DNA of 64,000 nucleotides from Promethearchaeia archaeon (lineage in GTDB: Archaea; Asgardarchaeota; Lokiarchaeia; Sigyniarchaeales; SOKP01). Of the stretch, positions 979 to 1,590 are shown piece by piece (position 1 is the stretch's first letter; the number at the start of each line of letters is the position of its first letter). The notes beneath the pieces are model-generated. The model worked only from the letters and a program-made list of their open reading frames with translations, was not told the DNA's origin and did not search any database. The translations under genes were made by a program, and so were the position numbers. The stretch covers positions 105,658 to 169,657 of the forward strand of contig JAHQWJ010000062.1 of NCBI GenBank assembly GCA_029856125.1, given 5' to 3'.

Positions 979-1590
979 ATGGGAAGAAGGAAACGTAAAC
1001 AACAATCATATAAAAGAGTTAAGCGAGTTCCAAAGATTTTCACGTGCCCAAATAACTAAATGGATACCCCATTTAATATGGATTGCGGTGAAAAATCTGT
1101 CAAGGTTAAGAATATTCGGAAAAGCTTAATTGCCACAGTGAAGTGTGGTCATTGTGGCTTAACAAAGGATGTTTTAATTAATTCTATATCAGAACCGGTT
1201 GATGCCTTTGGAGATTTTATCGATATTCATTACGCTGATCAGGAACTTCAGAGACTAGAAAAACGCATAGAGAAACTTAAAAAGAAAAATGAATGGGGGG
1301 AATTAGTTCTAGTTTATTCTATTTTATCGGATATTTGCAAAGCTAAAGCTGCAGAGGCCTTAGAAGATGAAGATAATGTCAACCTTGATGTAGTTAATAA
1401 ATGGAAAATTAGAGCGGAAGAATATAAAAGGTTAGGAAAGGATGCATTACTTCAACTAGACTCTCTTGAGTTAGAGAAAGGAATTAAAACAGATGACGAG
1501 TCTTTGTTTACAGAGCACGACGAGAGTGACATGAAGAGGGAAAAAAAAATCGAAGATATTTTTGACGATCCAGGCTTTCTTGAATTCTAA
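979..1590 (+). CDS. elf1: Transcription elongation factor Elf1 homolog with C-terminal helical/acidic extension, interrupted by a 30-nt putative intron (exon 1 979-1053, exon 2 1084-1590; 193 aa spliced)
   Basis: MGRRKRKQQSYKRVKRVPKIFTCPN|CGEKSVKV...ATVKCGHCGL...EPVDAFGDFID matches the Elf1 basic N-terminus, CxxC...CxxC zinc ribbon and EPVD motif. It is in the same frame as track ORF 1060..1590, separated by TAA at 1057-1059. Confidence 0.88.
1054..1083 (+). other. Putative BHB-type intron in elf1 mRNA (30 nt)
   Basis: Exon-exon stem 1034-1047/1085-1098; central helix CCAA/ATGG (3 of 4 pairs); 3-nt bulges ATA (1052-54) and ATT (1082-84); intron hairpin TAAATGG-ATACC-CCATTTA. Cutting after the 2nd bulge nt restores TGC CCA AAT TGC GGT. 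Confidence 0.75.

What the first reader, a model, noticed from the sequence alone, without database searches (positions are those of the whole stretch)
979..1098. Candidate tRNA-type (BHB) intron in the mRNA of elongation factor Elf1
Seen: the Elf1 N-terminus (ATG 979) is in frame with the downstream ORF, but 30 extra nt containing TAA split the first CxxC. The RNA can fold into an ~13-bp exon-exon stem (AGATTTTCAC-G-TGC / GCG-GTGAAAA-A-TCT), a 4-nt central helix CCAA/ATGG with one A-A mismatch, two opposed 3-nt bulges (ATA, ATT) and a 7-bp intron hairpin. Known: archaeal EndA cuts after the second nt of each bulge. Applying that rule removes exactly 1054-1083 and gives ...FTCPNCGEK..., an intact zinc knuckle. 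The only well-established EndA-spliced archaeal mRNA intron I know of is cbf5 in Crenarchaeota. Inference: this is a spliced mRNA intron in an Asgard archaeon, reminiscent of the non-spliceosomal HAC1/XBP1 splicing that uses tRNA ligases in eukaryotes.
Basis: partly seen in the sequence, partly recalled or inferred. Interest (0 to 1): 0.95.

Follow-up and report, generated by a model that had tools for sequence, protein, structure and literature searches.

The report
tRNA-type mini-intron splitting Asgard elf1
The only gene for transcription elongation factor Elf1 in this Loki-type Asgard archaeon is broken by a 30-base insert shaped like a tRNA intron. Comparison with about 120 related species indicates that the tRNA-splicing enzymes cut it out of the mRNA, a kind of splicing published for the coding part of only one other archaeal gene (cbf5).

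Summary
Window 979-1590 (+) encodes Elf1 (PF05129), split between profile positions 27 and 28 by 30 nt (1054-1083) that carry an in-frame TAA. The RNA folds as described: an exon-exon helix, a central helix CCAA/AUGG (3 of 4 pairs), 3-nt bulges AUA and AUU, and an intron hairpin.

- 40 of 136 elf1-bearing genomes of the order, all in one family (four genera), carry an insert at exactly this codon boundary.
- The inserts are 28, 30, 31 or 32 nt long, so most break the frame unless they are removed.
- The structure covaries: 90% of cells are paired against 42-51% when partners are slid, 11 of 23 pairs change on both sides, and no shuffle of 500 reaches the observed values.
- Both exons are under purifying selection.
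- Close relatives lack exactly these bases.
- The genome has EndA alpha plus a paralogue, and RtcB and archease lie 11 kb downstream.

No spliced transcript was seen. The one contig from an RNA library that crosses the site keeps the insert.

Verdict: a very probable EndA/RtcB-spliced mRNA intron, and a new member of the kind known from crenarchaeal cbf5. I found no paper describing it. This scan has already noted the same intron in other genomes.

The parts
979..1053 (+). elf1 exon 1 (25 codons: MGRRKRKQQSYKRVKRVPKIFTCPN). It holds the basic N-terminal tail and the first Cys of the first CxxC.
   Evidence: Matches PF05129 positions 1-27. It is intact, with a start codon, in all 39 distinct interrupted genes. 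Pooled pN/pS is 0.195.
1054..1083 (+). 30-nt BHB mini-intron with an in-frame TAA at 1057-1059
   Evidence: Sequence. The same position is interrupted in 40 genomes, with inserts of 28-32 nt. A syntenic metagenome contig, L103, lacks exactly these bases.
1084..1590 (+). elf1 exon 2 (168 codons plus stop). It holds the second Cys of the first CxxC, the rest of the zinc ribbon, and a C-terminal extension of about 110 aa.
   Evidence: Matches PF05129 positions 28-76. pN/pS is 0.119 among the interrupted genes of the genus.
1034..1047 (+). 5' strand of the exon-exon helix h; it pairs with 1085-1098
   Evidence: Fold. The inner 10 pairs (1036-1047 with 1085-1094) were counted and are 97.8% paired across 37 sequences. 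Interrupted genes keep 9.7 of 10 pairs against 7.5 of 10 in uninterrupted genes.
1048..1051 (+). 5' strand of the central helix H (CCAA, exon 1); it pairs with AUGG 1078-1081 (3 of 4 pairs, one A.A mismatch)
   Evidence: Pairs 3 and 4 covary with the coding bases: A-U, G-C and U-A at pair 3; G-C, A-U and C-G at pair 4.
1052..1054 (+). bulge B1 (AU^A); the predicted 5' cut is after 1053
   Evidence: Geometry fixed by the exon junction; canonical rule as described in bioRxiv 10.64898/2026.10.13.758758.
1055..1077 (+). intron helix h' (1055-1063 with 1069-1077; the core 7 bp are 1057-1063 with 1069-1075) and loop 1064-1068
   Evidence: Fold. All 9 pairs show changes on both sides across relatives, and 86.8% of cells are paired.
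1078..1081 (+). 3' strand of the central helix H (AUGG, intron)
1082..1084 (+). bulge B2 (AU^U); the predicted 3' cut is after 1083
   Evidence: A 3-nt bulge in both the minimum-energy and the centroid structure.
1085..1098 (+). 3' strand of the exon-exon helix h
12047..13519 (+). rtcB (RNA 3'-phosphate ligase), the presumed exon-joining enzyme; the gene is uninterrupted
   Evidence: PF01139, 567 bits, at G000:C63:117866-119173, which is window 12209-13516.
13632..14141 (-). archease, the RtcB cofactor
   Evidence: PF01951, 141.5 bits.

Best explanation
Bases 1054-1083 are a bulge-helix-bulge (tRNA-type) intron in the elf1 pre-mRNA.

Proposed mechanism: in the transcript, the end of exon 1 pairs with the start of exon 2 (helix h) and with the 3' end of the intron (4-position helix H). 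The intron forms its own hairpin (h'). This leaves two 3-nt bulges on opposite strands. The archaeal splicing endonuclease EndA (here an alpha subunit plus a paralogue, probably an (alpha-beta)2 enzyme) cuts after the second base of each bulge. RtcB with archease joins the exons. The spliced mRNA encodes a 193-aa Elf1 with an intact CPNC zinc knuckle. Unspliced mRNA can only give a 26-aa peptide, or an N-terminally truncated protein that lacks the first Cys.

What is shown: the structure, its covariation, the frame logic, selection on both exons, precise presence or absence among relatives, and the presence of the enzymes.

What is inferred: cleavage by EndA, ligation by RtcB, and the existence of the spliced mRNA.

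The apical hairpin motif (UGGAU...CCA) is shared across genera. This suggests, without showing, one old intron in this Promethearchaeota family followed by many precise losses.
For: - The Pfam Elf1 profile is split exactly at 27|28 by the insert. elf1 is single-copy in this genome.
- 40 of the 136 genomes of the order that have elf1 are interrupted at the same codon boundary: genus g1 16, g16 4, g21 1, g22 19.
- The inserts are 28, 30, 31 or 32 nt long. In-frame inserts carry stops, and the others shift the frame, so only removal restores CxxC.
- The sister genes L035 (30 nt) and L036 (28 nt) differ by two 1-nt deletions inside the insert. One of them turns the A.A mismatch into a perfect CCAA/UUGG helix, and both genes' exons stay open.
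- Covariation on 37 distinct sequences: 90.1% of cells are paired against 42-51% when the 3' partners are slid; 11 of 23 pairs change on both sides; no shuffle of 500 reaches any of the five observed measures. H pair 3 follows the third base of the Pro codon (A-U, G-C, U-A).
- Exon 1 pN/pS is 0.195 and exon 2 is 0.119 in interrupted lineages, and no interrupted gene has any other lesion.
- A syntenic DNA contig at 91-96% identity lacks exactly 1054-1083. On a 122-species gene tree, presence or absence needs at least 18 changes, at least 8 of them forced by well-supported branches.
- The machinery is present. The EndA alpha subunit matches the crenarchaeal catalytic subunits 3p1z_B and 2cv8 best, and there is a second paralogue in which I saw no catalytic His by eye. 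RtcB and archease lie in this window. ARAGORN finds only 17 tRNA genes in a 99%-complete genome, 10 of them with introns, so the tRNA genes are heavily interrupted. Asgard EndA is reported as (alpha-beta)2 with the L1 loop that confers broad specificity (PMC5829648).
Against: - No spliced RNA was observed. In four runs labelled as RNA, the only contig across the site (X20, 1014-1157, from a close relative) keeps the insert. It may be pre-mRNA or contaminating DNA.
- The window's motif is relaxed. H has an A.A mismatch, C1056.A1076 is unpaired in h', and the minimum-energy fold partly closes bulge B1. Many genus g22 copies have a C.C or C.U mismatch in H, and one (L075) has only 2 of 4 pairs.
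- Whether this organism's EndA accepts such motifs has not been measured.
- The related sequences are not independent, so the shuffle statistics overstate significance.
Confidence: 0.85

Rival explanations
1. The mRNA is not spliced. The gene is expressed as a truncated Elf1 that starts at ATG 1060 inside the insert (the 176-aa form that gene callers annotate), with or without a separate 26-aa peptide from exon 1.
For: Public protein collections list the 176-aa form for the interrupted genes (P0002 and others). In the window, ATG 1060 and ATG 1078 are in frame with exon 2. The only contig from an RNA library across the site is unspliced.
Against: - The truncated protein lacks the first Cys of the four-Cys zinc ribbon and the conserved basic tail.
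- Exon 1 is under purifying selection in all interrupted lineages.
- An in-frame start inside the insert is not conserved: in the 28-nt copy L036 the intron ATG is out of frame with exon 2, and no in-frame ATG was seen in the 31-nt genus g22 inserts (inspection).
- It does not explain covariation between exon 1 and the 3' end of the insert.
Confidence: 0.07
2. Translational bypassing (ribosome hopping, as in phage T4 gene 60) skips the insert.
For: In some genus g22 copies, exon 1 ends in GAA followed by UGA, and the insert also ends in GAA. This resembles matched take-off and landing codons with a stop and a hairpin.
Against: - In the window the take-off codon is AAU and the codon before exon 2 is GAU.
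- Genera g1, g16 and g21 and several g22 copies have no matched codons, and in the window the stop does not directly follow the take-off codon.
- Bypassing does not require the exon-exon helix or the H pairing, both of which covary.
Confidence: 0.03
3. The gene is a pseudogene inactivated by a small insertion, or the insert is an assembly artefact.
For: An in-frame stop in a single-copy gene, and automatic annotation as a truncated ORF.
Against: - The insert occurs in 40 species-level genomes from many independent assemblies and studies.
- Exons in all 39 distinct interrupted genes are free of any further lesion and are under purifying selection.
- The structure of the insert itself is conserved by compensatory changes.
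- elf1 is the only copy in the genome.
Confidence: 0.03

Closest known systems
BHB intron in the cbf5 (pseudouridine synthase) pre-mRNA of Crenarchaeota (Watanabe et al. 2002; Yokobori et al. 2009, PMC2738675)
   Same: A short non-self-splicing intron inside an archaeal coding sequence. It is flanked by a bulge-helix-bulge motif built partly from exon sequence. The host has an (alpha-beta)2-type EndA. The distribution among relatives is patchy, with gains and losses.
   Different: A different gene (elf1) and a different lineage (Loki-type Asgard archaea, not Crenarchaeota). The intron is 28-32 nt, sits inside a zinc knuckle, and turns over very often (at least 18 changes among 122 species). 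Splicing of cbf5 has been shown experimentally; splicing here has not.
BHB intron in the 5' UTR of the HVO_1309 mRNA of Haloferax volcanii (Schwarz et al. 2020, PMC7714728)
   Same: An mRNA that is a substrate of the tRNA-splicing endonuclease in archaea.
   Different: That intron lies in the untranslated leader, so the reading frame does not depend on it. Here the coding frame is restored only by excision.
Non-canonical BHB introns of Asgard and Thermoproteales tRNA genes (PMC5829648; bioRxiv 10.64898/2026.10.13.758758)
   Same: The same motif, the same presumed enzymes, relaxed variants tolerated, and many gains and losses.
   Different: The host RNA is a messenger, so the exon half of the motif is made of codons, and the intron partner covaries with synonymous and amino-acid changes.
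HAC1/XBP1 unconventional mRNA splicing in eukaryotes (IRE1 plus a tRNA ligase or RtcB)
   Same: Spliceosome-independent excision of a short mRNA intron by a protein endonuclease, and ligation by the tRNA ligase (RtcB in animals).
   Different: The endonuclease is IRE1, not EndA/TSEN. The recognition motif is a pair of stem-loops. The splicing is a regulated stress switch, and no regulation has been shown here.

Membership tests
Archaeal bulge-helix-bulge (tRNA-type) intron | [quoted passage not shown] | tested here: met
   In the window: bulges AUA and AUU, H with 3 of 4 pairs (relaxed), h 13 bp, h' 7-9 bp. The strict form, with 4 of 4 pairs, is found in the 28-nt copy, the genus g1 32-nt copies and the genus g21 copy.
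Archaeal bulge-helix-bulge (tRNA-type) intron | Cuts at the canonical bulge positions give exactly the functional junction | tested here: met
   With the junction fixed by the intact genes of relatives, the bulges and H fall in the canonical register in 38 of 39 distinct sequences (at least 3 of 4 H pairs). Sliding the partners by 1-3 columns lowers pairing to 42-51%.
Archaeal bulge-helix-bulge (tRNA-type) intron | The structure is maintained by compensatory change | tested here: met
   11 of 23 pairs change on both sides, the covariation score is 0.296 against 0.125 for shuffles, and 0 of 500 shuffles reach the observed value.
Archaeal bulge-helix-bulge (tRNA-type) intron | The host encodes EndA and the RtcB/archease ligation system | tested here: met
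   Two PF01974 genes; RtcB and archease.
Archaeal bulge-helix-bulge (tRNA-type) intron | Spliced RNA (exon junction) and/or the excised, circularised intron is observed | tested here: inconclusive
   Four runs labelled as RNA were laid. No joint was found, and one 144-nt contig keeps the insert. The data were assembled contigs only, at low depth.
Archaeal bulge-helix-bulge (tRNA-type) intron | Cleavage by EndA at both bulges | not testable with these tools
   This needs an in vitro assay with the recombinant enzyme.
Elf1 transcription elongation factor (PF05129) | Profile match above Pfam's gathering score | tested here: met
   49.2 bits against 29.8 for the read-through protein; exon 2 alone scores 37.3 bits. 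The NCBIfam equivalog PRK14892 scores 59 bits, below its cut-off of 109.
Elf1 transcription elongation factor (PF05129) | Four-Cys zinc ribbon (CxxC ... CxxC) | tested here: met
   The ribbon is intact only after removal of 1054-1083: CPNC ... CGHC. The uninterrupted relative P0013 has the identical junction.
Programmed translational bypass (T4 gene 60 type) | Matching take-off and landing codons, with a stop directly after the take-off codon | tested here: not met
   In the window the take-off codon AAU is followed by AAC UAA, and the codon before exon 2 is GAU. There is no match in genera g1, g16 or g21.

The most novel reading that the evidence does not exclude
The elf1 intron is not just tolerated. 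It acts as a switch that ties production of a transcription elongation factor to the cell's tRNA-splicing capacity (EndA/RtcB/archease), an archaeal counterpart of HAC1/XBP1-type regulated mRNA splicing. Alternatively, the KIFTCP/CGEK codons form a naturally BHB-competent site into which introns are repeatedly inserted by reversal of the EndA/RtcB reaction.
Probability: 0.12. Interest if true: 0.9.

Novelty: new member of a known kind. Interest (0 to 1): 0.72.

Why it matters
In the papers I could search, endonuclease-spliced introns inside archaeal coding sequences are known from a single gene, cbf5 of Crenarchaeota (PMC7714728).

A second case would show that tRNA-type splicing of messengers is not a crenarchaeal curiosity. 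This one sits in the Asgard lineage closest to eukaryotes, in a transcription factor shared with eukaryotes, and is present in dozens of species with frequent precise loss or gain.

It offers a natural system for studying how protein-gene introns arise and disappear without a spliceosome.

It also corrects annotation. Public databases list these genes as 176-aa truncated proteins, where the likely product is a 193-aa Elf1.

Tried and rejected
- RNA evidence. One search for sequencing runs and one laying of four RNA-labelled runs gave no spliced joint. X17 covered only 1139-1631. X18 laid nothing. X19 covered only parts of exon 2. X20 gave one contig with the insert retained. All four of its differences inside the insert lie at unpaired positions of the model (1054, 1056, 1064, 1067). 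These were assembled contigs, so absence of a spliced form proves nothing.
- Spliced transcripts among database proteins. The closest 193-aa protein (P0013, 95% identical) lies on DNA-like contigs with neighbouring genes on both strands, so it is an allele without the insert, not a cDNA.
- Other BHB-interrupted protein genes in this genome. I ran a pattern scan (insert 16-120 nt, H at least 3 of 4 pairs, h' at least 3 of 4, h at least 6 bp with an optional bulge, joining open frames of at least 20 and 50 codons) followed by a folding filter. It kept 3 candidates under the strict filter and 6 under a looser one. Apart from elf1, the flanking frames did not read like proteins on inspection; they were not searched. 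The scan would miss first exons shorter than 20 codons and weaker motifs.
- A second copy of the insert in the genome. blastn-short found only chance-level matches, so the insert is not a repeated mobile element here.
- Rfam. There was no match in 850-1250.
- Literature. Three searches found no paper that links Elf1 with a BHB intron.
- Genus g12. Its low-scoring Elf1 hits are not interrupted; they carry an extra zinc-ribbon duplication.

Full report
**Observation**

Window 979-1590 (+) is an Elf1 gene broken by 30 nt. ATG 979 opens 25 codons (MGRRKRKQQSYKRVKRVPKIFTCPN) that end at 1053. Bases 1054-1083 carry TAA at 1057-1059. TGC GGT GAA at 1084 continues for 168 codons to a stop at 1588-1590.

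Pfam's Elf1 profile (PF05129) matches exon 1 at positions 1-27 and exon 2 at positions 28-76, so the insert sits exactly between two adjacent profile positions, inside the first CxxC.

The minimum free energy is -17.5 kcal/mol, z = -3.15, and 0 of 200 shuffles fold as well. The 5' bulge is less clean: the minimum-energy fold closes it with two A-U pairs, while the centroid leaves it open. The central helix has an A.A mismatch. No Rfam family matches.

**Whose genome**

Near-identical loci come from records titled Promethearchaeota (Loki-type Asgard) metagenome-assembled genomes. The window is contig C63 of a 3.69-Mb genome that is 99% complete, and elf1 is single-copy in it.

**Distribution**

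I searched PF05129 in all 154 genomes held for the order and read the DNA of the hits.
- 136 genomes have elf1, and 40 of these are interrupted at exactly the same codon boundary.
- All 40 are in one family: genus g1 16 of 36, g16 4 of 4, g21 1 of 9, g22 19 of 49.
- The other families of the order, including the single-contig complete genomes, are uninterrupted.
- There are 39 distinct interrupted sequences, with inserts of 28, 30, 31 or 32 nt.
- In-frame inserts carry stop codons, and the others shift the frame. In every case, precise removal restores C-P-x-C-G-E-K.

**Structure and covariation**

I fixed the junction from the intact genes. The bases that should form the central helix H (the four bases before each bulge) then pair at 3 or 4 of 4 positions in 38 of 39 sequences. 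The 28-nt copy, the genus g1 32-nt copies and the genus g21 copy are strict BHB motifs (CCAA/UUGG, CCGA/UCGG).

H pair 3 is the third base of the Pro codon. When it is A, G or U, the intron partner is U, C or A. H pair 4 follows the first base of codon 25.

On a MAFFT alignment of 37 distinct sequences (A1), the stated structure gave these counts:
- 90.1% of cells form standard pairs, against 42-51% when the 3' partners are slid by 1-3 columns.
- 11 of 23 pairs show changes on both sides, including all 9 pairs of the intron hairpin.
- None of 500 column shuffles reaches the observed values.

The sequences are related to each other, so these figures are descriptive, but the slide control keeps relatedness intact.

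The exon-exon helix keeps 9.7 of 10 pairs in interrupted genes against 7.5 of 10 in uninterrupted ones. So synonymous sites look constrained where the insert is present, and the KIFTCP/CGEK codons are naturally prone to pair.

**The gene is alive**

All interrupted genes keep a start codon, 25 open codons in exon 1 and an open exon 2. Pooled pN/pS is 0.195 for exon 1 and 0.119 for exon 2 in interrupted lineages.

The sister genes L035 and L036 (branch lengths 0.02) differ by two single-base deletions inside the insert (30 to 28 nt). That would be fatal for any read-through model. For an intron it is neutral or even helpful, because one deletion repairs the A.A mismatch.

**Precise presence or absence**

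A metagenomic DNA contig (L103) is syntenic, with the neighbouring gene on the opposite strand, and 91-96% identical. It lacks exactly 1054-1083.

On an elf1 gene tree of 122 species, presence or absence needs at least 18 changes, at least 8 of them forced by well-supported branches. Uninterrupted genes are nested inside clades of interrupted ones, for example L017 within the 32-nt clade and L117 beside L066.

The apical hairpin motif (UGGAU...CCA) recurs in all four genera. I therefore favour one old intron and many precise losses, but a short gene tree cannot settle this.

**Machinery**

The genome has two EndA-family genes.
- One matches the catalytic subunits of crenarchaeal heterotetramers best (3p1z_B, 3ajv_B, 2cv8), and the Tyr/His/Lys residues are visible in its sequence.
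- The other is divergent, and I saw no catalytic His in it by eye.

This fits the (alpha-beta)2 enzyme with the L1 loop reported for Asgard archaea, a type that accepts relaxed motifs (PMC5829648; also bioRxiv 10.64898/2026.10.13.758758).

RtcB (window 12047-13519) and archease (13632-14141, minus strand) lie 11 kb downstream of elf1. ARAGORN finds only 17 tRNA genes, 10 of them with introns, in this near-complete genome. That fits heavily interrupted tRNA genes and a busy splicing system.

**RNA evidence**

None supports splicing directly. Of the four RNA-labelled runs laid, one (X20) yielded a 144-nt contig over 1014-1157 from a close relative that retains the insert. Its four differences inside the insert all lie at unpaired positions of the model. 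No joint was reported. The data are assembled contigs at low depth, and DNA carry-over cannot be excluded, so this neither shows nor refutes splicing.

**Rivals**

- A pseudogene or an assembly artefact is excluded by the conservation, the selection on the exons and the many independent assemblies.
- Stop-codon read-through is excluded by the 28-, 31- and 32-nt inserts.
- Ribosome hopping needs matched take-off and landing codons. These exist only in part of genus g22 (GAA...GAA) and not in the window (AAU against GAU).
- Separate translation from an internal ATG gives the 176-aa product that the databases list. That product lacks a zinc ligand, its start is not conserved among the insert classes, and it does not explain selection on exon 1 or the pairing between exon 1 and the insert.

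**Is it unique in this genome?**

My scan for BHB-like inserts joining open frames kept elf1 and a handful of frames that did not read like proteins on inspection. The insert has no second copy in the genome.

**Comparison and novelty**

PMC7714728 states that the cbf5 mRNA of Crenarchaeota is the only additional BHB intron reported, apart from the intron it describes in the 5' UTR of HVO_1309. Three full-text searches found nothing that links Elf1 and such an intron.

The element works like the cbf5 intron, so it is a new member of a known kind. What is new is the host gene, the Asgard lineage and the unusually rapid turnover.

This scan has already recorded the same intron in other genomes, and in this genome from an overlapping window. 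I did not rely on those notes. One of them mentions transcripts from a relative, which I could not check.

**Verdict**

Direct RNA or enzymatic proof is still missing.

Noticed in passing
window 12047-13519 (+) and 13632-14141 (-): rtcB and archease, the RNA-ligation pair expected to rejoin the elf1 exons, sit convergently about 11 kb downstream of elf1 on the same contig. rtcB is uninterrupted here, whereas earlier notes of this scan describe BHB introns inside rtcB of DPANN archaea.
   Followed up: partly
whole genome G000 (ARAGORN run); window 23430-23514 (-): ARAGORN recognises only 17 tRNA genes in a 99%-complete genome, 10 of them with introns. The window's tRNA-Leu(GAG) is one of the few called. 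Most tRNA genes are probably hidden by non-canonical or multiple introns.
   Followed up: no
window 1230-1590 (+): This Elf1 carries a C-terminal extension of about 110 aa (a charged, coiled-coil-like stretch and an acidic tail ending in DDPGFLEF). It has no Pfam match and is conserved across the order (open frames of about 190-210 aa), far longer than the 79-position PF05129 zinc-ribbon domain.
   Followed up: no
L087-L091 (genus g12, same family): Elf1 of genus g12 is uninterrupted but carries an inserted second zinc ribbon (three CxxC pairs in a row, open frames of 253-261 aa).
   Followed up: partly
G103 (L083 and L121), G101 (L079 and L099): G103 holds both an interrupted and an uninterrupted elf1. 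G101 holds an interrupted elf1 and a shorter Elf1-like paralogue (MKKKIKVWRCPNC...). These may be true paralogues or mixed bins (contamination 7-9%).
   Followed up: no
window 1621-3048 (-): A 475-aa ORF convergent with elf1 is conserved next to elf1 in the close relative (L103). I did not look at its family.
   Followed up: no
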